A stretch of DNA of 31,694 nt. Origin: a virus (Duplodnaviria > Heunggongvirae > Uroviricota > Caudoviricetes > Peduoviridae). Made by a program: the position numbers and the translations under genes. Shown here piece after piece: positions 19,964 through 27,158 of the stretch. Under the pieces are notes generated by a model that saw nothing but the letters and a program-made list of their open reading frames with translations, searched no databases and was not told where the DNA came from. Every line of letters begins with the position of its first letter. Positions within the stretch are counted from its first letter, which is position 1. The stretch covers positions 1-31,694 of the IMG/VR virus record IMGVR_UViG_3300045988_104496; one strand, 5' to 3'.

Positions 19964-20997
19964 TGAGCAAGAAAAAAGGGAAAACACCGCAACCTGCGGC
20001 AAAAAAAATGACCGCCAGCGCCCCGAAAATGGAGGCATTCACCTTTGGTGAGCCGGTGCCGGTGCTCGACCGCCGTGACATTCTGGATTACGTCGAATGT
20101 ATCAGTAACGGCAGATGGTATGAGCCGCCGGTCAGCTTTACCGGTCTGGCAAAAAGCCTGCGTGCTGCCGTGCATCACAGCTCACCGATTTACGTCAAAC
20201 GTAATATTCTGGCTTCAACGTTTATCCCGCACCCGTGGCTTTCCCAGCAGGATTTCAGCCGCTTTGTGCTGGATTTTCTGGTGTTCGGTAATGCGTTTCT
20301 GGAAAAGCGTTACAGCACCACCGGTAAGGTCATCAGACTGGAAACCTCACCGGCAAAATATACCCGCCGTGGCGTGGAGGAGGATGTTTACTGGTGGGTG
20401 CCGTCCTTCAACGAGCCGACAGCCTTCGCGCCCGGCTCCGTGTTTCACCTGCTGGAGCCGGATATTAATCAGGAGCTGTACGGCCTGCCGGAATATCTCA
20501 GCGCCCTTAACTCTGCCTGGCTGAATGAGTCGGCCACGCTGTTCCGCCGCAAGTATTACGAAAATGGCGCACATGCCGGATACATCATGTACGTCACCGA
20601 TGCCGTGCAGGATCGCAACGATATCGAAATGCTTCGCGAAAACATGGTGAAGTCGAAAGGCCGCAACAACTTTAAAAACCTGTTTCTCTATGCCCCGCAG
20701 GGGAAAGCCGACGGCATTAAAATTATCCCGCTCAGTGAAGTGGCGACGAAGGACGATTTTTTTAATATCAAAAAAGCCAGCGCCGCTGACCTGCTGGACG
20801 CACACCGCATCCCCTTTCAGTTGATGGGTGGCAAGCCGGAGAACGTCGGGTCACTGGGTGATATTGAGAAAGTGGCAAAGGTCTTTGTCCGCAATGAGCT
20901 AATCCCGTTACAGGACAGGATTCGGGAAATAAACGGCTGGCTCGGCCAGGAGGTCATCCGCTTTAAAAACTACTCACTGGACACTGACAACGGCTGA
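19963..20997 (+). CDS. Q: Portal protein gpQ
   Basis: 344-aa ORF, P2 Q size; its ATG overlaps the P stop (ATGA). Confidence 0.9.
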   Translation: MSKKKGKTPQPAAKKMTASAPKMEAFTFGEPVPVLDRRDILDYVECISNGRWYEPPVSFTGLAKSLRAAVHHSSPIYVKRNILASTFIPHPWLSQQDFSRFVLDFLVFGNAFLEKRYSTTGKVIRLETSPAKYTRRGVEEDVYWWVPSFNEPTAFAPGSVFHLLEPDINQELYGLPEYLSALNSAWLNESATLFRRKYYENGAHAGYIMYVTDAVQDRNDIEMLRENMVKSKGRNNFKNLFLYAPQGKADGIKIIPLSEVATKDDFFNIKKASAADLLDAHRIPFQLMGGKPENVGSLGDIEKVAKVFVRNELIPLQDRIREINGWLGQEVIRFKNYSLDTDNG

Positions 20998-21002
20998 ACA
21001 TC

Positions 21003-21024
21003 GCCGCCTGCGGGCGGCTTTTTT
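21003..21024 (+). terminator. Rho-independent terminator after Q
   Basis: gccgcc-tgcg-ggcggc followed by TTTTTT, 6 nt after the Q stop. Confidence 0.7.
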
Positions 21025-21166
21025 ACACCCCGTCATCACGCCCTCACACGCTCACCACCGCACAAAACACCCCGCAGACACACCAACGCCCTAGCAGGCC
21101 AAGTAAACGCCTTCACGACGCGCTCAGACGCTGAAAAAATAAAATCCGCACCACCGCCAGCGCGCA

Positions 21167-21185
21167 GTGCTTTCCCCGCCTCGCC
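21167..21185 (-). other. cos: cos site (19-nt P2 cohesive end)
   Basis: Plus strand gtgctttccccgcctcgcc is the exact reverse complement of the P2 cohesive end GGCGAGGCGGGGAAAGCAC as I remember it; position next to Q is as in P2. Confidence 0.7.
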
Positions 21186-21509
21186 CGCCCGCTTCATAGG
21201 GCGCTTTTAATGCAATTGCATTAAAACACAGTAACCGCATCAACACTGGTAACAAACATGGAAAAGCATGGCAACTAACACACGCAAAAAAATGCACTTA
21301 ATGAATGCAGTAATAAAAATCTCAGGAAATTGACAATTCATTTATTTTTTCAAAATCCCAGTTAGTTAAAGGCTCGCTATCATTACAAGCAATCAAAAAA
21401 TGTCTTAGCTCTAACAGCAAGTAGTAATAGTAGTTGCCACCAACAAGCGTTAACATTACCATAACAAACAACAAGCATTCCTACACCTACATCAGATGAA
21501 CAGGTAATT

Positions 21510-22874
21510 ATGATTAATTTAATTATGGGTGGTTTTCCCGACCACTACGACCACTGGAAACCATTCAGCCAAAATAATGGAGAATTCTCATTTCTTTTAT
21601 CACGAATGTTTGAAAACACCTCCGATGGTATTCGCAAAAAACTATCCCCATTAAGCAGCAATGTACTATCTTATCTTGAAAAACTCCCAACAATATTCAT
21701 GAGTGAAGCTTATCAAATAGAGGGAGCAAAACCTTATTATGTCGACATACGAATTGGAAGAATTTCAAATATTCACATTAAGGGAAAAGAAATCAACTTC
21801 CAATTTGCAATCACCCATACACACAATGAAATCAAAATATCAGACGCCAAAAGTGTTGAAAGCAGTTTAGAACTCGGAACTTATGGCCTTAAAAGAACAC
21901 ACTGGGCCATAAAAGACAAAAATATAGATGATATCCTTAAGACATTTGGTATTAACCAAAATGCACAAGTGGATAGCAGTCCAGCGCCTCTCCCAGACGA
22001 AGATAGCACATTATTAACCGTAAATAGTTTACAAGAATTTATTGAAAAAGTTCTCCATATAACAGCAGATATGGATGAGGAGATTTTTTACAGGGGTCAT
22101 TCAGATTCATCTTATGAACTTGCACCATCTCTTTTCAGAAAATATGAAAATGGGAACTATAAATTTCTACATAATGAAATCAACCTTGTTAAAGAAGCAT
22201 TGAGCGCAAGACCCTCAGAATTCATTGATGATACATCAATGCTTGATAAACTTGTAAGAATGCAACATTATGGCATACCTACTCGCTTACTTGACATCAC
22301 ATCAAATCCATTAATTGCACTTTATTTTGCATGCAGTAGTATAAATTCCGACAAAAACGATATCGATGGTCAAGTAATAATATTTAAAACACACAGAGAG
22401 AACATTAAATTTTTCGATTCCGACACTGTCAGTTGCATATCTAATTTATGCATGCTATCAAAAGACATGAAAGACAAGCTTTCTTTCGAAGAAAGAAATA
22501 ATGATTTTAACAACTCTCATGCTTGCCTTAAACTCTTAGAATCCATAAAGCATGAAAAACCATATTTTCAAAGCATAATAAATCCAGATGATTTGGAAAA
22601 GATAATTTTTGTAAAAAGCAGGATAAATAATGAAAGAATATCATCTCAATCCGGTGCCTTTTTATTATTCGGTAATAACGCCGTTTTTCCTGAGATATCC
22701 AACGATCAGGCAGATAATTCACCATACAACTTTAAGACAGAAAAAATAAACATCAGAGACAAAAAGAAAATTTTAAAAGAACTTGCCGTGCTCAATATTA
22801 CTGATGCCACTGTATATTTAGGATTGGAAAGAACAATGAAACTAATCACAGAAAAATACACATTAAAAAATTAG
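21510..22874 (+). CDS. FRG-domain protein, function unknown; candidate anti-phage cargo gene
   Basis: 454-aa ORF in a strongly AT-rich island. Contains the two FRG-domain signature blocks, EEIFYRGHSDSSYELAPSLFR and LVRMQHYGIPTRLLDITSNPLIALYFAC, recognised from memory of the Pfam FRG family. AGGT 6 nt before the ATG. Sits where P2 has old/tin. Confidence 0.65.
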   Translation: MINLIMGGFPDHYDHWKPFSQNNGEFSFLLSRMFENTSDGIRKKLSPLSSNVLSYLEKLPTIFMSEAYQIEGAKPYYVDIRIGRISNIHIKGKEINFQFAITHTHNEIKISDAKSVESSLELGTYGLKRTHWAIKDKNIDDILKTFGINQNAQVDSSPAPLPDEDSTLLTVNSLQEFIEKVLHITADMDEEIFYRGHSDSSYELAPSLFRKYENGNYKFLHNEINLVKEALSARPSEFIDDTSMLDKLVRMQHYGIPTRLLDITSNPLIALYFACSSINSDKNDIDGQVIIFKTHRENIKFFDSDTVSCISNLCMLSKDMKDKLSFEERNNDFNNSHACLKLLESIKHEKPYFQSIINPDDLEKIIFVKSRINNERISSQSGAFLLFGNNAVFPEISNDQADNSPYNFKTEKINIRDKKKILKELAVLNITDATVYLGLERTMKLITEKYTLKN

Positions 22875-22982
22875 CATTCCATAACCAAAATATCTCCATA
22901 CTTCCCCGCAGAAATTAAGGCTACGGGGAAATAACATCAGTAAGTATCTTAAGAACAATATAATCACTTACAGGAACCTGTA

Positions 22983-23960
22983 TTAAAGTGCAGTACTTGC
23001 TTTTAATGTAAGCACCTTTGATCTATAACGTTGTTCAATTACCCCCATAGAATGCAATCGTCCAAATAACTTTTTGGCAGTATGAGTTTCTCTTGCACAC
23101 GCTGCATCCTTTATCATTTTCCAATATTCAATTTCTTGAGACATTAAAAGATGCTGCTTATTCCTGACTTTTAAAGAACCGCCCAAAACAATAACACCTG
23201 TTACCAACTTAGGCTTTTCTCTACTATAAATTTTTGTTTTATCCGCATGCATCACATGACCATGCTTATTTATTATTTTGCGAATCACTGAACAAAATAG
23301 TCTATTAACGTTTTGTCCTGAAAAAGTTAGATCATCAACATAAACAGACATATTTACGTGTAGTTTATTACAAAGTTGGTGTATTTCTCCGAACATTCTT
23401 GAATTTGCAAAATATGCAAGAGGCATACTAATCCTGCTACCTGTAGGCAAACGCCCATAGCAAGTACATATATACGATAATACATCCGCAACATCAGATG
23501 ACATCTTCATAACAGAAAAAAAGAATGAAAATATCATTTCTCTAGTAGTTGATGGAAAAAAAGCCCTGATGTCGGTTGTCATCAACCTTTCATTATTAAG
23601 GTGGATTTTAGCATTAGTAACATTAGAACATCCCTTCTTTCCAGAATGTAGATAATCTGGCAAGGTAATTCGCGATAGCAGACTTGCAATACGAGTATGC
23701 ACCACATCTAATTTTTCTAATGGTTTTTGTATCTTACGTGGCTTTCCGTTTTTAGATAACTGTTCAAAAATAGAATAATTGCCTTCATCTTTTTTTAAGG
23801 TTGATAAATCCCCTACATCAACCCCCAATAAAGAAGCCAATTTCCTTTTACTTCTCATTTTATAAAACGGCGAATCAATTATATCGTAAGATTTATTTTT
23901 AGTGGAAATTTTGAGTTTTATTCGTCTTTTCATTTTTCTTATTCGCCCACTCAATAACAT
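22983..23960 (-). CDS. Retron-type reverse transcriptase (start codon uncertain)
   Basis: Contains the retron RT hallmarks in order: NAxxH (VTNAKIHL), motif A (TDIRAFFPS), motif B-like LPTGSRISMPLAYFANS, catalytic YVDD (SVYVDDLTF) and the retron VTG motif (KLVTGVIV). Overall length and N-terminal pattern resemble Ec86-class RTs as I remember them. Alternative starts at 23933 (MKRRIK) or 23858 (MRSKRK); none has a strong Shine-Dalgarno. Confidence 0.8.
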   Translation of the reverse strand: MLLSGRIRKMKRRIKLKISTKNKSYDIIDSPFYKMRSKRKLASLLGVDVGDLSTLKKDEGNYSIFEQLSKNGKPRKIQKPLEKLDVVHTRIASLLSRITLPDYLHSGKKGCSNVTNAKIHLNNERLMTTDIRAFFPSTTREMIFSFFFSVMKMSSDVADVLSYICTCYGRLPTGSRISMPLAYFANSRMFGEIHQLCNKLHVNMSVYVDDLTFSGQNVNRLFCSVIRKIINKHGHVMHADKTKIYSREKPKLVTGVIVLGGSLKVRNKQHLLMSQEIEYWKMIKDAACARETHTAKKLFGRLHSMGVIEQRYRSKVLTLKASTAL

Positions 23961-24231
23961 CTAATACTTTACCAGCTAAATTTAAACGGAAACGCTTAGA
24001 TAAACGCCCCTGCGTACCTAACGATTCTGAAAAAAATACTAAAGAAGATACCGGCATATCGAAATGGGAGGCGTAACGCTGTAAAACATCAATTGTAGGC
24101 GACCAAACCCCACTTTCGAGTTCTACTATTTTTTCTTTTGGAATACCTAAAGATGTTGATAAATCAACCAATGACTCTTTATGGTATTGCCTTATTAAAC
24201 GAAGGGCTCTGTGTAACATAGGCAACTCCAT
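23899..24231 (-). CDS. XRE-family helix-turn-helix protein, directly upstream of the RT gene
   Basis: LHRALRLIRQYHKESLVDLSTSLGIPKEKIVELESGVWSPTIDVLQRYASHFDMPVSSL fits the Cro/C1-type HTH pattern. The likely true start is the second Met at 24219, which has GGAG 6 nt upstream. The 3' end overlaps the longest RT reading frame. Confidence 0.65.
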   Translation of the reverse strand: MELPMLHRALRLIRQYHKESLVDLSTSLGIPKEKIVELESGVWSPTIDVLQRYASHFDMPVSSLVFFSESLGTQGRLSKRFRLNLAGKVLDVIEWANKKNEKTNKTQNFH

Positions 24232-24255
24232 GCTATTGAAACTAGGGAGGACGCA

Positions 24256-24411
24256 TTACTCATCACCCCCTTCAAAGTAGTCCAGTGCTCGAGTGGCTAA
24301 ATCAAACAGTCTAATACCCCATTTGATTAATTTCCAAACATAACCAGCCCACTTTTTCAGGTTTGACTTGTTCTGCGCCTGCTGTTCGTTGGTTAATTTA
24401 TCATTCTTCAT
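24256..24411 (-). CDS. Small ORF (51 aa) with a consensus Shine-Dalgarno; hypothetical small protein
   Basis: AAGGAG, a 6-nt spacer, then ATG at 24411; encodes MKNDKLTNEQQAQNKSNLKKWAGYVWKLIKWGIRLFDLATRALDYFEGGDE with a Trp-rich amphipathic segment. The 3' arm of the upstream hairpin (CATAAG) abuts and partly overlaps the SD. Confidence 0.4.
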   Translation of the reverse strand: MKNDKLTNEQQAQNKSNLKKWAGYVWKLIKWGIRLFDLATRALDYFEGGDE

Positions 24412-24660
24412 GATTTGCTCCTTATGCCCATAGTGTGCAAACGATATGTCTGCTCCAACACTATGGTTCGCCCTCATAAGGATGAGATTGAACAGCACTA
24501 GCCCCCTGCTCCACGAACCCTTGGTCGCCCAAAGGGTTCGAATACCCATACGCCATACCGCCTGATCCTGTGACTCTTGTCGCTGGCAGGGGCGTTGCGC
24601 GGGGTAAATGTTAGAAAGCGTTAACTTTCCACGGGTAAAGTTACCCAATTGATGGCGATG
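24412..24660 (-). ncRNA. GC-rich structured leader; candidate retron msr-msd ncRNA (boundaries not determined)
   Basis: A GC-rich patch inside an AT-rich island. On the minus strand there is a long imperfect hairpin of about 15 bp at 24421..24480, a 9-bp stem cgaaccctt/aagggttcg at 24514..24540, and further short hairpins at about 24612..24650. The only ORF covering it needs a TTG start and has odd amino-acid composition. No convincing a1/a2 inverted repeat pair was found by eye. Confidence 0.35.
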
Positions 24661-24827
24661 TATCTCACTAACTAACCAATGTTTGCATCATAACAAGTAA
24701 ACCGTTGTATTTGATCTCCCTATATATAATATTTTTTTATATTAAATAAACAATTAATAAATATTAAACATAAAACATATTAAAGCGACCTCCTCTATGC
24801 CTTCATTGCATTGAATTTTAACGTTTT
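24661..24827 (-). promoter_or_regulatory. AT-rich putative promoter region for the ncRNA/small ORF/HTH/RT operon
   Basis: Minus strand reads TTGTTT, a 17-nt spacer, then ATTATA/TATATA around 24745..24715, followed by gggagatcaaat... Positioned between the A stop and the structured leader. By-eye promoter call only. Confidence 0.3.
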
Positions 24828-27158
24828 TTATATAAAAAATGACACTTCATCTTGAAATCCGAACCACTCATCAGCGACCGGATACGTGAATTTTTTCCCG
24901 TCATAATTTACGGTCGCGCCACGCGCCAGCGCCTCAAGCTCCCATCGCTGCGGCCTGATACCGTTCTGAGCAAGGTCAACGCGGATACGGGTAATTTGCA
25001 TTCGTTCCGACCGGGCCAGTCTGGCCGATGGTGCAATTTCATGTGGTTTTAACGGGCTTCCGTTTCTTTGCTGACGATTTGGCGTTCTCCGACCGTGTTT
25101 TAATGCACCTCTGAGCGCCCTCACGACCTCCGGGTCACTCCATTCGATAACACCGTCATCAACCAGATTAAGCACTGCTGCGGCGTGCTCAGAAGGTGTG
25201 GGAACCGGTAACGAAGTATCACCACCGGTGAGTTTTCCACAGTTATTGACAGGACTCCGAGGCGCGGCGATGCCGCTTTTTAAAGTCAAAGGCTCAACGA
25301 CCGGAACTTTCGGCACAATGCGCCAGTCCGTCGTTCTGGTGATATGAATATGACGCGCGCCGAGATGCGGCGCGTAAATGCCGACCACTCTCTCGACTTC
25401 TTCCTCGTACTCGTTAACGTCATCCGACGGGATACGGGCGACTCTGACAGTCTGACAATCGCGCGGGACATTTGCCCCACCCTGCGCGCTGATATACAAC
25501 GCAAAATCACCACTGTCTGCGGCGGCGCGTGCAGCCTCGACGCGCTCGTCAAACTCATCAGCAATGCTGACGCCGCGCGGCAATTTGCGTAGTTCACGGT
25601 AAGCCCCCATTGTCGGCAGGCCAACCGTTTTAAATTGCGGGATGCGCCACGTTGACGCCCATGCGCTAACAGCCGCTGCAGTGTCTTTCAGCGGCCTGCC
25701 GGTGTCGTTATCGAGCTGACCATCCAGTGCATAGCCGTCGATGTTTTTTGAAATGTATTTCGCGATATATCCCGCAGCACCGCCCCGGTTAAGATGTTTT
25801 GCCTGAAAACGGTTTCGCGCGGCTCCTCTTTCGTCGCCATCCTCTTTGAGCGCATAGCGACGCATGATTTCGATAATCTGGTTACGCTGGCGCGGATTAC
25901 AAAAAAGCATCATATGCCAGTGCGGCGTTCCGTCGTGGTGTGGCTCGACGACACGCAAACCGTAGACCTGTAAATCATTATCCTTGAATGCCGTGCGCAT
26001 CAGGCTCCAGATACGGCAGAGATAACGCTGCGCATCCTTTGGATTAAATGCCTCATCGTTCCAGCCGTGATTTAGCTGGACGGTTTTACTTTCGCCTTTT
26101 CTGACCTGACGTGTCGGGTGATACTTTGACGGCGCGGTCAGCGTGATAAACATCCCCACATCACCCTCTGCTGCGGCGTAACGCTCAATACCGGCAATGG
26201 TGTTCATCAGCTCCATCCGGCGAATTTCAGGATTAGAAATACTGCCCATCACCTTACTGATAAGGTCGATGCGCTCGCCGGTTTCCCTGTTTTCGAGATC
26301 ACACGATTTAAGAAATTCCAGATTTGCCTGGCGGCGTGCACGCACATCACGAATGGCATGTTTACTGGCATAAGGAGAACGGTCTTTATTGACCTCCCCG
26401 ACAGCAATCAGTAACGCCTCATGCCAGCGCATACGCTGGCCTTTAAGCTGATGGGTCCACCACTCATCGTTAAACAGACGGACAATGGCAGAATATGCCT
26501 GCCTCGTGGTCATCTGCCCTTTACGGTATTTTTTCCAGTAGAGAGGGGAAATATTGAAAGCACGTGCAGCACCAGCAACATGACCATAGAGGTGAGCCTG
26601 CGCCTCATCCGTAAACAGCGATTCTTTTTCGCCATGCGCATCCACCCAGGCATCGCAGAGTTCCTCATACATCATGAAAAGCTGCGATGAGATACGGGCG
26701 GCAAACTTTTTCAGCTCCTTGTCATTCATCCCCGGCAGACGCGCATAATGGTCACGCTCTGCCAGAAACAGCAACGACGCGTCGGTGTTCATTTCATGGC
26801 GCTGATTCACACGCTCAATGCGCGGCCATAAACGACGCTGAAAAGTGGATGTGAGAAAATAAAACCCGTGCACCGGGCTTTTATTGCGCCGGATGTAGTC
26901 ATAGCGTGAAGTAAACAGCGAGCGCAAAAAGTAAGGCAGGCGGTTAATCGTGGATAAAACACCTTGCACCTGACGCATCTCGTCACGTGTAAGGGGTCTT
27001 TCGCGCCCGACAGCCTCGCGTGGCGCGTTCCATGCATAAGCACCGGTAAACGCCTTACCGGTGCCTGCGGCAAATGCTGACGGAGGGACAAAACGCCCGG
27101 AGGCTTTAACGGCCATATGAGCCAAAAGCCTCTGAACAACGCTTGCTGAGTTGCTCAA
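24828..27158 (-). CDS. A: Rolling-circle replication initiator (P2 gpA-like)
   Basis: 776-aa ORF with the HUH metal-binding motif (VEPHHDGTPHWHMMLF) and paired active-site tyrosines (YIAKYISK). The true start may be the Met at 27116, giving about 762 aa close to the P2 A size. Confidence 0.9.
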   Translation of the reverse strand: MSNSASVVQRLLAHMAVKASGRFVPPSAFAAGTGKAFTGAYAWNAPREAVGRERPLTRDEMRQVQGVLSTINRLPYFLRSLFTSRYDYIRRNKSPVHGFYFLTSTFQRRLWPRIERVNQRHEMNTDASLLFLAERDHYARLPGMNDKELKKFAARISSQLFMMYEELCDAWVDAHGEKESLFTDEAQAHLYGHVAGAARAFNISPLYWKKYRKGQMTTRQAYSAIVRLFNDEWWTHQLKGQRMRWHEALLIAVGEVNKDRSPYASKHAIRDVRARRQANLEFLKSCDLENRETGERIDLISKVMGSISNPEIRRMELMNTIAGIERYAAAEGDVGMFITLTAPSKYHPTRQVRKGESKTVQLNHGWNDEAFNPKDAQRYLCRIWSLMRTAFKDNDLQVYGLRVVEPHHDGTPHWHMMLFCNPRQRNQIIEIMRRYALKEDGDERGAARNRFQAKHLNRGGAAGYIAKYISKNIDGYALDGQLDNDTGRPLKDTAAAVSAWASTWRIPQFKTVGLPTMGAYRELRKLPRGVSIADEFDERVEAARAAADSGDFALYISAQGGANVPRDCQTVRVARIPSDDVNEYEEEVERVVGIYAPHLGARHIHITRTTDWRIVPKVPVVEPLTLKSGIAAPRSPVNNCGKLTGGDTSLPVPTPSEHAAAVLNLVDDGVIEWSDPEVVRALRGALKHGRRTPNRQQRNGSPLKPHEIAPSARLARSERMQITRIRVDLAQNGIRPQRWELEALARGATVNYDGKKFTYPVADEWFGFQDEVSFFI

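What the first reader, a model, noticed from the sequence alone, without database searches (positions are those of the whole stretch)
24412..24660. GC-rich structured RNA candidate (possible msr-msd) upstream of the HTH-RT pair
A GC-rich patch in an otherwise AT-rich island, with several stable hairpins on the minus strand. It is covered only by an implausible TTG-initiated ORF and is preceded by a sigma70-like promoter. This is the expected location for a retron ncRNA when accessory genes lie between the ncRNA and the RT. I could not identify the a1/a2 repeats or the branching G, so the boundaries are open; a longer weak inverted repeat (ttggttagtt near 24678 versus aattaaccaa near 24397) would imply an unusually long ncRNA.
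Basis: seen in the sequence. Interest (0 to 1): 0.7.

Follow-up and report, generated by a model that had tools for sequence, protein, structure and literature searches.

The report
Type VI retron template-and-toxin RNA
The GC-rich patch is the non-coding part of the structured RNA of a Type VI retron, an anti-phage system carried by a P2-like E. coli prophage; the RNA holds the reverse-transcription template and runs on into a 51-codon toxin gene, a kind of element first described in 2025-2026 preprints.

Summary
The window is an E. coli P2-like prophage (100% identical to Peduovirus P22H1). Its AT-rich hotspot carries a Type VI retron: RT (PADLOC RT_VI, 1e-105), HTH (HTH_VI, 7e-30) and a conserved 51-aa small protein (SP, 24256-24411, minus strand).

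The patch at 24412-24660 is the non-coding two-thirds of a ~450-nt minus-strand "hybrid RNA" (~24680 to ~24232). In 18 homologous loci the 130-aa TTG frame is not kept, and there is no codon periodicity upstream of the SP start. Of 119 consensus pairs, 97% of cells are paired, against 34-43% in slid controls, and 29 pairs show compensatory changes.

A covariance model of the core finds the same element upstream of the RT in more distant relatives, including a locus matching the published Retron-Vpa2. All published hyRNA landmarks are present:
- a variable-length msd hairpin;
- a GGGCGA direct repeat;
- a sequestered SP ribosome-binding site;
- inverted repeats tying the non-coding part to both ends of the SP gene.

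The branching G, the RNA ends and msDNA production remain untested. It is a new member of a known kind, of modest interest.

The parts
24687..24695 (-). Candidate extended -10 promoter element TGTTATGAT. A weak -35-like ATCAAA lies at 24715-24710.
   Evidence: Conserved as TGnTATGAT, TAGTAT or TATTAT, with A2 and T6 kept. A variable spacer of fixed 7-nt length separates it from the first conserved RNA base (alignment). The orthologue in L122 passes the promoter scan; the window site itself does not. The transcription start near 24680 is inferred.
24232..24680 (-). Inferred hybrid RNA (hyRNA): msr-msd-like arm, riboregulator arm, SP coding arm and 3' inverted repeat.
   Evidence: MFE -159.2 kcal/mol, z -4.99. 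Consensus structure on 18 loci: 97.2% of cells paired against 34-43% in slid controls. No terminator-like site in 24000-25000. The ends are inferred from where conservation stops and from the published RNA-seq of Vpa2 and Sen3.
24412..24680 (-). Non-coding part of the hyRNA. The finding (24412-24660) lies inside it.
   Evidence: No codon periodicity: 37/38/41 variable columns by frame position, p 0.80. The frame is broken in homologues.
24670..24679 (-).
   Evidence: Pairs with 24398-24389. GC to AU in 3 sequences and UA to GC in 6. Cognate duplexes average -12.4 against -8.7 kcal/mol for non-cognate, 0/10000 permutations.
24389..24398 (-). H1 3' arm, AATTAACCAA, inside SP codons 5-8.
24662..24667 (-). 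H2 5' arm, TGAGAT; pairs with ATCTCA at 24488-24483.
   Evidence: Invariant in the near set. In distant loci GAGAT/ATCTC becomes GGGAT/ATCCC, GAGAG/CTCTC or GGGAG/CTCCC.
24613..24647 (-). Two small conserved hairpins, H3 (24647-24632) and H4 (24630-24613); msr-like.
   Evidence: H3 has 3 pairs with compensatory changes and H4 has 1. Both recur in Vibrio, Xenorhabdus and Shewanella loci.
24545..24603 (-). Long hairpin with a conserved base and a variable apex: the candidate msd stem.
   Evidence: It folds as one hairpin in every lineage where it could be extracted, with the extracted segment ranging from 55 to 115 nt. Three pairs near its base show compensatory changes. It corresponds to the Vpa2 long stem-loop covered by msDNA (bioRxiv 10.1101/2025.10.22.683967).
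24514..24540 (-). Hairpin H8, CGAACCCTTTGGGCGACCAAGGGTTCG. Its loop holds direct repeat 1, GGGCGAC (24530-24524). [quoted passage not shown]
   Evidence: 10 of 10 pairs show compensatory changes in the wider family. GGCGA in the loop is conserved in 18 of the 19 matches.
24502..24513 (-). IR1, TGGAGCAGGGGG, directly 3' of the msd (a2-like position).
   Evidence: Pairs with IR2. This pairing is used in the full-length MFE. Cognate against non-cognate duplexes: 19/10000 permutations. Compensatory variants were also seen by eye.
24490..24497 (-). Hx 5' arm, TGCTGTTC; pairs with GAACAGCA at 24387-24380 (SP codons 9-11).
   Evidence: I19. Cognate duplexes average -13.2 against -8.3 kcal/mol, 0/10000 permutations. 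Used in the MFE.
24418..24482 (-). Riboregulator arm. TCCTTATG (24482-24475) pairs with CATAAGGA (24426-24419) and so hides the SP Shine-Dalgarno AAGGAG (24423-24418). The arm encloses direct repeat 2, GGGCGAA (24473-24467), and a covarying hairpin (24466-24428).
   Evidence: The closing stem is invariant in the near set, and 7 pairs of the inner hairpins show compensatory changes. The closing stem does covary in distant relatives (helices 3-4).
24256..24411 (-). SP gene: 51 aa plus stop; the predicted toxin.
   Evidence: The ORF is kept in all 27 near loci, with amino-acid variation. Third-position excess: 28/25/40 variable columns, p 0.006. Annotated by PGAP.
24237..24250 (-). IR2, CCTCCCTAGTTTCA, just after the SP stop codon (a1-like position).
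   Evidence: Near-invariant non-coding block. Pairs with IR1.
23899..24219 (-). HTH gene (106 aa from ATGTTACAC), preceded by a GGAG Shine-Dalgarno.
   Evidence: PADLOC HTH_VI, 7.2e-30. 50% identical to the Vpa2-locus HTH.
22983..23933 (-). Retron reverse transcriptase (316 aa); overlaps the end of the HTH gene by 35 nt.
   Evidence: PADLOC RT_VI, 1.1e-105, 351 bits; the next family scores 152 bits. 54% identical to the Vpa2-locus RT.

Best explanation
The patch is the non-coding part of the hybrid RNA (hyRNA) of a Type VI retron, made up of ncRNA, SP, HTH and RT, sitting in the defence hotspot of a P2-like prophage.

Inferred: a constitutive promoter with an extended -10 (24695-24687) starts a ~450-nt minus-strand transcript near 24680.

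Shown by comparative analysis: the transcript folds into several elements.
- Two small hairpins.
- A long, variable-apex hairpin (24603-24545) plus a conserved hairpin (24540-24514). Together these are the msd template.
- A riboregulator arm that hides the SP ribosome-binding site.
- The SP coding region, tied back to the non-coding part by three long-range helices: H1, Hx and IR1-IR2.

Inferred by homology to Retron-Vpa2:
- HTH keeps reverse transcription low, and host nucleases remove the little msDNA that is made.
- Phage recombination or anti-RecBCD proteins let a roughly 90-nt msDNA accumulate.
- The 5' hairpin loop of that msDNA (the complement of GGGCGAC) anneals to the second GGGCGAA repeat in the riboregulator. 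This frees the SP ribosome-binding site and start codon.
- The 51-aa SP is then translated and stops growth of the infected cell.
For: Identity of the system:
- RT_VI 1.1e-105 and HTH_VI 7.2e-30.
- A 51-aa SP conserved in every relative.
- The trio is linked across different genomic contexts: P2 prophages, near yeiP in E. coli C5, next to Qat genes, and near rpoD in Vibrio.

RNA and not protein:
- The 130-aa frame is open for only 4-92 codons upstream of the SP start in homologues, with region lengths not multiples of 3.
- No codon periodicity upstream of the SP start (p 0.80), against p 0.006 within SP.

Structure:
- z -4.5 to -5.0 on the minus strand, against -1.9 on the plus strand.
- 119 consensus pairs: 97.2% of cells paired against 34-43% in slid controls.
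- 29 pairs with double changes against 5-11 in slid controls; 0/500 shuffles reach this.

Family-wide conservation:
- Covariance model R1 finds the core upstream of the RT, same strand, in 19 sequences, 16 of them at E below 0.01.
- 37 of 39 pairs show compensatory changes.

Homology to the characterised system:
- R1 scores 58.6 bits (E 1.5e-12) on L127. That locus encodes a 55-aa SP with K15, I39, F43 and F45, the residues mutated in Retron-Vpa2.
- RT 54% and HTH 50% identical.

Published landmarks found here:
- The 7-nt direct repeat in the msd loop and in the riboregulator loop.
- The sequestered ribosome-binding site.
- Inverted repeats linking the arms.

Mechanism: taken from bioRxiv 10.1101/2025.10.22.683967.
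Against: - No transcript, msDNA or defence data exist for this locus.
- RNA ends, promoter use and msd boundaries are all inferred.
- No conserved G could be placed next to either candidate a1 arm, so the priming site is unknown.
- Rfam has no family that matches.
- The SP is only weakly similar to the Vpa2 SP (33% over 24 residues, E 0.012), so the effector step may differ.
- Another Type VI retron, Sen3, makes ssDNA and SP constitutively and is controlled post-translationally (bioRxiv 10.64898/2026.04.27.721009). The Vpa2-type switch therefore cannot simply be assumed.
- The helix sets {H1, H2} and {Hx, IR1-IR2} cross each other. The true fold could be a pseudoknot or two alternative conformers; this is unresolved.
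Confidence: 0.85

Rival explanations
1. The RNA is the same retron RNA, but control follows the Sen3 model. ssDNA and SP are made constitutively. HTH neutralises SP as a protein antitoxin. Inhibition of RecBCD by the phage releases the toxin, with no msDNA-driven translational switch.
For: Retron-Sen3 has the same SP-HTH-RT layout and an ncRNA with a sequestered SP ribosome-binding site and an IR1-IR2 pair flanking SP, yet it works this way. In Vpa2 too, an HTH mutation is toxic.
Against: This retron is nearer to Vpa2 than to Sen3. Its SP has 51 aa, like the 55-aa Vpa2 SP and unlike the 79-aa Sen3 SP with its N-terminal extension. Its RNA core matches the Vpa2 locus. The GGCGA direct repeat, which Zhang et al. 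proposed (not tested) to act in the translational switch, is kept in 18 of the 19 matches. The related Retron-Eco12 from E. coli gave no detectable msDNA at baseline.
Confidence: 0.2
2. The structured region is only a cis-acting translational leader for the SP-HTH-RT operon and is not reverse-transcribed. It would then not be an msr-msd.
For: The SP ribosome-binding site is sequestered. Type VI retrons gave no visible msDNA in a census of retrons, and no ncRNA was found for them in the 2020 classification.
Against: In Vpa2 the homologous long hairpin is covered by RT-dependent DNA. The variable-apex hairpin on a conserved base is typical of an msd and is unnecessary for a leader. The RNA always travels with a retron-clade RT.
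Confidence: 0.04
3. The region encodes the 130-aa protein annotated in NC_049386 (HYP13_gp41).
For: An uninterrupted TTG-initiated ORF is present and is annotated in one phage record.
Against: The N-terminal 79 codons are interrupted or frame-shifted in most homologues. They show no third-position bias and match no Pfam or PADLOC family. Variation is compensatory in RNA helices. PGAP annotates only the 51-aa ORF. A similar spurious 115-aa ORF overlies the Vpa2 ncRNA.
Confidence: 0.01

Closest known systems
Retron-Vpa2 hybrid RNA (Type VI retron of Vibrio parahaemolyticus; Zhang et al., bioRxiv 10.1101/2025.10.22.683967)
   Same: - Same gene order: ncRNA, SP, HTH, RT.
- RT 54% and HTH 50% identical.
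- The RNA core is matched by the covariance model at 58.6 bits.
- Same succession of RNA elements: two small hairpins, a long msd hairpin, a conserved hairpin carrying a direct repeat, a riboregulator hiding the ribosome-binding site with the second repeat, and inverted repeats that bind the SP coding region and the sequence after its stop codon.
- Similar length: about 450 nt here against about 470 nt.
   Different: - Host and context: an E. coli P2-like prophage hotspot.
- The SP is barely similar in sequence.
- The direct repeat reads GGGCGA(C/A) here and GGACGAA in Vpa2.
- The msd apex sequence is unrelated.
- Nothing has been tested experimentally here.
Retron-Eco12 (E. coli Type VI retron tested alongside Vpa2)
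   Same: An E. coli Type VI retron related to Vpa2. It defends against lambda-vir and gives no detectable msDNA at baseline.
   Different: Its sequence is not in the text or supplements held, so identity with this locus could not be checked. E. coli carries at least two divergent lineages of this retron: the P2 type here and the C5 type in L117, about 61% RT identity.
Retron-Sen3 and the cl2075 lineage (Garcia-Rodriguez et al., bioRxiv 10.64898/2026.04.27.721009)
   Same: A Type VI SP-HTH-RT module. The ncRNA lies within about 280 nt of the SP start. The SP ribosome-binding site is sequestered. A variable internal stem is the candidate DNA template. An IR1-IR2 pair flanks the SP gene. Covariation extends into the SP coding sequence.
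   Different: The Sen3 SP has 79 aa with an N-terminal extension, against 51 aa here. Sen3 makes ssDNA of about 112 and 145 nt constitutively and is controlled post-translationally. That paper places Vpa2 in a separate lineage ("Large"), outside cl2075; I infer this retron lies nearer Vpa2 from its RT and RNA similarity.
Canonical retron msr-msd (for example Retron-Eco1/Ec86)
   Same: A retron-clade RT next to a structured RNA. An msd hairpin with a variable apex. Terminal inverted repeats next to the start of the template.
   Different: The a2-like arm (IR1) pairs with a sequence downstream of an embedded toxin gene, not with the 5' end of the RNA. No conserved branching G was found. By analogy, msDNA acts as an activator and not as an antitoxin. 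There is no Rfam match.

Membership tests
Retron (general) | Reverse transcriptase of the retron clade | tested here: met
   The best PADLOC hits are all retron RT models, led by RT_VI at 1.1e-105. Pfam RVT_1 scores above its cut-off.
Retron (general) | Adjacent, same-strand structured ncRNA with evolutionary support | tested here: met
   29 of 119 pairs (near set) and 37 of 39 pairs (wider family) show compensatory changes.
Retron (general) | a1/a2 inverted repeats flanking msr-msd, with a conserved branching G next to a1 | tested here: inconclusive
   Covarying long-range repeats exist: H1, and IR1-IR2. IR1 sits where a2 would. No conserved G lies within 4 nt of the 3' end of IR2, and the G after H1 is not invariant.
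Retron (general) | Production of msDNA (RT-dependent ssDNA, 2'-5' branched or debranched) | not testable with these tools
   Needs gel analysis or sequencing of RT-dependent DNA. Shown only for the homologue Vpa2.
Type VI retron (Mestre et al. 2020 classification) | RT of the Type VI clade | tested here: met
   RT_VI scores 351 bits over the full profile (1-278 of 279); the next family scores 152 bits.
Type VI retron (Mestre et al. 2020 classification) | Cro/C1-type HTH gene immediately upstream of, or overlapping, the RT gene | tested here: met
   HTH_VI at 7.2e-30. The HTH gene's 3' end (23899) overlaps the RT start (23933) by 35 nt.
Type VI retron (Mestre et al. 2020 classification) | Small accessory protein (SP) gene upstream of the HTH gene | tested here: met
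   A 51-aa ORF kept in all relatives, with codon-like variation.
Vpa2-type hybrid RNA (hyRNA) | Sequence and structure homology to the Vpa2 RNA | tested here: met
   R1 hits L127 (SP with K15, I39, F43, F45) at 58.6 bits, E 1.5e-12.
Vpa2-type hybrid RNA (hyRNA) | SP ribosome-binding site held in a stem; conserved 7-nt direct repeat in an msd loop and in the riboregulator loop | tested here: met
   24482-24475 pairs with 24426-24419. The repeats lie at 24530-24524 and 24473-24467. GGCGA is conserved in 18 of the 19 matches.
Vpa2-type hybrid RNA (hyRNA) | One abundant transcript containing both msr-msd and the SP coding sequence | not testable with these tools
   Indirect support only: no terminator-like site, and helices that join the non-coding part to the SP coding sequence covary.
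cl2075 / Retron-Sen3 lineage | SP of about 79 aa with an N-terminal extension of about 25 residues | tested here: not met
   The SP here has 51 aa, and the upstream frame is not conserved.
Protein-coding gene (130-aa ORF, HYP13_gp41) | Reading frame conserved, with third-position bias across the ORF | tested here: not met

The most novel reading that the evidence does not exclude
The two sets of covariation-supported long-range helices cross each other. One set is H1 plus H2. The other is Hx plus IR1-IR2. They might be the two states of a switch whose shared hub is SP codons 5-11. [quoted passage not shown] That would make this a permuted retron: the toxin ORF lies between the template and the strand that positions the primer, so reverse transcription physically remodels the toxin mRNA. 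The preprints mention alternative conformations and an a1/a2-like 3' repeat. They do not describe the crossing topology, nor H1 and Hx as hub helices, in the text I could read.
Probability: 0.2. Interest if true: 0.6.

Novelty: new member of a known kind. Interest (0 to 1): 0.33.

Why it matters
It shows that the long-missing ncRNA of Type VI retrons can be recognised from sequence alone. It also supplies an E. coli prophage example: present in 100 of 5,426 complete E. coli genomes, and unannotated in RefSeq and absent from Rfam. This example has a well-resolved comparative structure.

The locus gives a native-host system for testing the two competing Type VI mechanisms: msDNA-triggered toxin translation and constitutive arming with a protein antitoxin. 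It also corrects a mis-annotated 130-aa CDS in a RefSeq phage genome.

It does not reveal a new kind of system.

Tried and rejected
- Rfam at gathering and permissive thresholds: nothing relevant, only a chance PinT hit at E 8.5.
- Consensus promoter and terminator scan of the window: no minus-strand promoter passes the criteria here. The promoter call therefore rests on conservation.
- I first assumed the retron belonged to the Sen3/cl2075 lineage, because a Yersinia enterocolitica relative exists. I dropped this on reading that cl2075 SPs have about 79 aa.
- The RNAalifold helices H9 (24511-24490) and H13 (SP codons 9-16 with the region after the stop codon) compete with Hx and IR1-IR2. H9 is poorly supported in the wider family (78.8% paired), and the full-length MFE prefers Hx plus IR1-IR2. 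I treat H9 and H13 as less likely or alternative states. One H13 pair does covary in 6 sequences.
- I checked whether the 2006 'functional RT in P2-like coliphages' (P2-EC30) was this system. It is Abi-P2, an unrelated RT class.
- I looked for the Retron-Eco12 sequence in supplements and found none.
- I searched for a covarying stem-loop upstream of 24680, as reported for cl2075. Only an inconsistent 3-5-bp pairing overlapping the -35/-10 region could be seen by eye, so I make no claim.
- No conserved branching G could be assigned.

Full report
**Context.** The window is a P2-like E. coli prophage. Positions 22900-24830 are 100% identical to Peduovirus P22H1 (NC_049386) and to many E. coli chromosomes; 100 of 5,426 complete genomes carry the region. 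An AT-rich island (about 21200-24800, GC 0.30-0.37) lies between the packaging genes and the gene A-type replication gene at 24828-27158. In related loci this is the interval between the gene A-type replication gene and the portal gene. It appears to be the P2 hotspot for anti-phage systems described in PMC9122126. The island holds an FRG-domain gene (PADLOC PDC-S15) on the plus strand. On the minus strand it holds a reverse transcriptase (PADLOC RT_VI, 1.1e-105, 351 bits; the next family scores 152), an overlapping HTH gene (HTH_VI, 7.2e-30), and a 51-codon ORF with a good Shine-Dalgarno sequence. This is the SP-HTH-RT layout of Type VI retrons.

**The observation.**
- The GC-rich patch is real: 0.505-0.525, against 0.28-0.37 in most of the rest of the island and 0.40-0.44 in the windows next to the patch.
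- Several exact 8-9-bp inverted repeats lie inside it.
- The minus strand folds much better than shuffled sequence: z -4.5 for 24380-24720 and z -5.0 for 24232-24681. The plus strand gives z -1.9.
- The 130-aa TTG ORF exists and is annotated as a CDS in NC_049386. NCBI's pipeline annotates only the 51-aa ORF at 24256-24411.

**Coding or RNA?** I collected relatives from species-representative genomes, viral contigs, E. coli genomes, phage records and assemblies. I then aligned 25 distinct loci, of which 18 went into the structural alignment.
- The 51-aa SP is kept everywhere, with amino-acid variation.
- The reading frame upstream of its ATG is open for only 4-92 codons, and the aligned region differs in length by non-multiples of three.
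- Variable columns upstream of the ATG are spread evenly over the three frame positions (37/38/41, p 0.80).
- Within SP they pile up at third positions (28/25/40, p 0.006).

The region is non-coding, but the ORF's last third is a real gene.

**Structure.**
- RNAalifold on the 18 sequences gives 119 pairs. Of all cells, 97.2% form standard pairs, against 34-43% when partners are slid by 1-3 columns.
- 29 pairs carry changes on both sides, against 5-11 in slid controls. No shuffle out of 500 reaches the observed values.
- A covariance model of the core (24544-24416) finds one hit in the window. It also finds hits about 500-630 nt upstream of the RT, on the same strand, in Vibrio, Xenorhabdus, Shewanella, Hafnia, Rahnella, Colwellia and others. 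There are 19 matches in all, 16 of them below E 0.01.
- On that wider, model-fitted alignment, 37 of 39 pairs show compensatory changes.

**Anatomy** (minus strand):
- A conserved extended -10 (TGTTATGAT, 24695-24687) lies exactly 7 variable nucleotides before the first conserved base. The L122 orthologue passes the promoter scan; the window copy has too weak a -35 to pass.
- H1 5' arm, TTGGTTAGTT (24679-24670).
- H2 5' arm, TGAGAT (24667-24662).
- Two small hairpins (24647-24632 and 24630-24613).
- A long hairpin with a conserved base and a variable apex (24603-24545). The extracted segment containing it is 55-115 nt long in other lineages, and it always forms a single hairpin.
- Hairpin H8 (24540-24514), with GGGCGAC in its loop.
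- IR1, TGGAGCAGGGGG (24513-24502).
- Hx 5' arm, TGCTGTTC (24497-24490).
- H2 3' arm, ATCTCA (24488-24483).
- A riboregulator arm in which TCCTTATG (24482-24475) pairs with CATAAGGA (24426-24419). This covers the SP Shine-Dalgarno. The arm encloses GGGCGAA (24473-24467) and a strongly covarying hairpin.
- The SP gene (24411-24256). It contains the H1 3' arm (24398-24389, codons 5-8) and the Hx 3' arm GAACAGCA (24387-24380, codons 9-11).
- IR2, CCTCCCTAGTTTCA (24250-24237), just after the stop codon.

**Long-range helices.** Within the near set it shows GC to AU in 3 sequences and UA to GC in 6. In distant lineages the arms differ completely in sequence yet stay complementary.

An alignment-free test on 15 lineages compared each locus's own pair of segments with all non-cognate combinations:

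| Pairing | Cognate (kcal/mol) | Non-cognate (kcal/mol) | Permutations as good |
|---|---|---|---|
| H1 | -12.4 | -8.7 | 0/10000 |
| Hx | -13.2 | -8.3 | 0/10000 |
| IR1-IR2 | -15.3 | -13.2 | 19/10000 |

Two control pairings show no cognate advantage (4461/10000 and 1736/10000). The full-length MFE uses IR1-IR2 and Hx. The sets {H1, H2} and {Hx, IR1-IR2} cross each other, so they form either a pseudoknot or alternative conformers. I could not decide between these.

**What is known.** Two preprints describe this class.
- Zhang et al. (10.1101/2025.10.22.683967) define the ~470-nt hybrid RNA of Retron-Vpa2. It has an msr-msd arm, a riboregulator arm hiding the SP ribosome-binding site and start codon, the SP coding arm, and a 3' end that anneals back through a1/a2-like repeats. 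A 7-nt direct repeat sits in an msd loop and in the riboregulator loop. msDNA of 63 nt, or 86 nt at full length, accumulates only on triggering. That msDNA is needed for SP translation.
- Garcia-Rodriguez et al. (10.64898/2026.04.27.721009) describe Retron-Sen3. Its ncRNA has a similar architecture and an IR1-IR2 pair, but ssDNA and SP are made constitutively and HTH acts as a protein antitoxin.

Locus L127 from V. parahaemolyticus encodes a 55-aa SP with K15, I39, F43 and F45, the residues named for Vpa2. The covariance model hits it at 58.6 bits. Its RT is 54% and its HTH 50% identical to the window's. In L127 the reported 63 + 23 = 86 nt fit the long hairpin plus H8 (1817-1902) and end immediately before IR1. 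This mapping is my own inference from the reported lengths, not from published coordinates. By homology, the window's template would be about 24607-24514 (~90 nt). IR1 would then be a2-like and IR2 a1-like.

**Mechanism.** Shown here: the RNA is non-coding upstream of SP, is structured, is conserved with the RT, and has every landmark of the Vpa2 hyRNA. Inferred: the transcript ends, the msd boundaries, and the Vpa2-type switch in which msDNA accumulation frees the SP ribosome-binding site. The Sen3-type alternative cannot be excluded. The SP size, the RNA homology and the conserved direct repeat all favour the Vpa2 type. The branching G is unassigned.

**Novelty.** This is a new, unannotated member of a recently described kind, and it may be identical to Retron-Eco12, whose sequence I could not obtain.

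Noticed in passing
window 21510-22874 (+): A 454-aa FRG-domain protein (Pfam FRG 2.4e-21; PADLOC candidate system PDC-S15, 7e-98) shares the AT-rich hotspot with the retron and is convergent with the RT. It is absent from the seven other retron loci compared, so it is probably an independent defence cargo.
   Followed up: partly
window 24256-24648 (-); NC_049386 HYP13_gp41: The RefSeq phage record annotates the non-conserved 130-aa TTG ORF as a CDS and labels the RT just 'polymerase'. PGAP genome records annotate only the 51-aa SP. A similar spurious 115-aa ORF overlies the ncRNA in the Vpa2 locus (L127 1828-2175).
   Followed up: yes
L088 and L090 compared with window 22983-24680: In other E. 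coli P2-type variants the non-coding hyRNA and SP are 95-97% identical to the window, and the SP-HTH spacer is 100% identical. Identity then drops to 84% in HTH and 78% in RT. The step falls at the SP/HTH junction. It suggests either recombination between modules or much stronger constraint on the RNA.
   Followed up: partly
L117 (E. coli C5, near yeiP), L124 (next to Qat genes), L127 (near rpoD/dnaG): The same ncRNA-SP-HTH-RT module occurs outside P2 prophages in several chromosomal contexts, so it moves as a unit independently of the phage.
   Followed up: partly
window 20900-21200: A short GC-rich stretch (0.58-0.62) with strong negative GC skew (down to -0.39) lies between the end of the 344-aa ORF and the AT-rich island. 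By position it may be the P2 cos region. I did not examine it.
   Followed up: no
window 24724-24745 (-): An A-rich tract followed by a conserved TATA-like block sits about 45-65 nt upstream of the inferred start and is conserved across relatives. It could be an UP-like element, an HTH operator or a second promoter. Unresolved.
   Followed up: no
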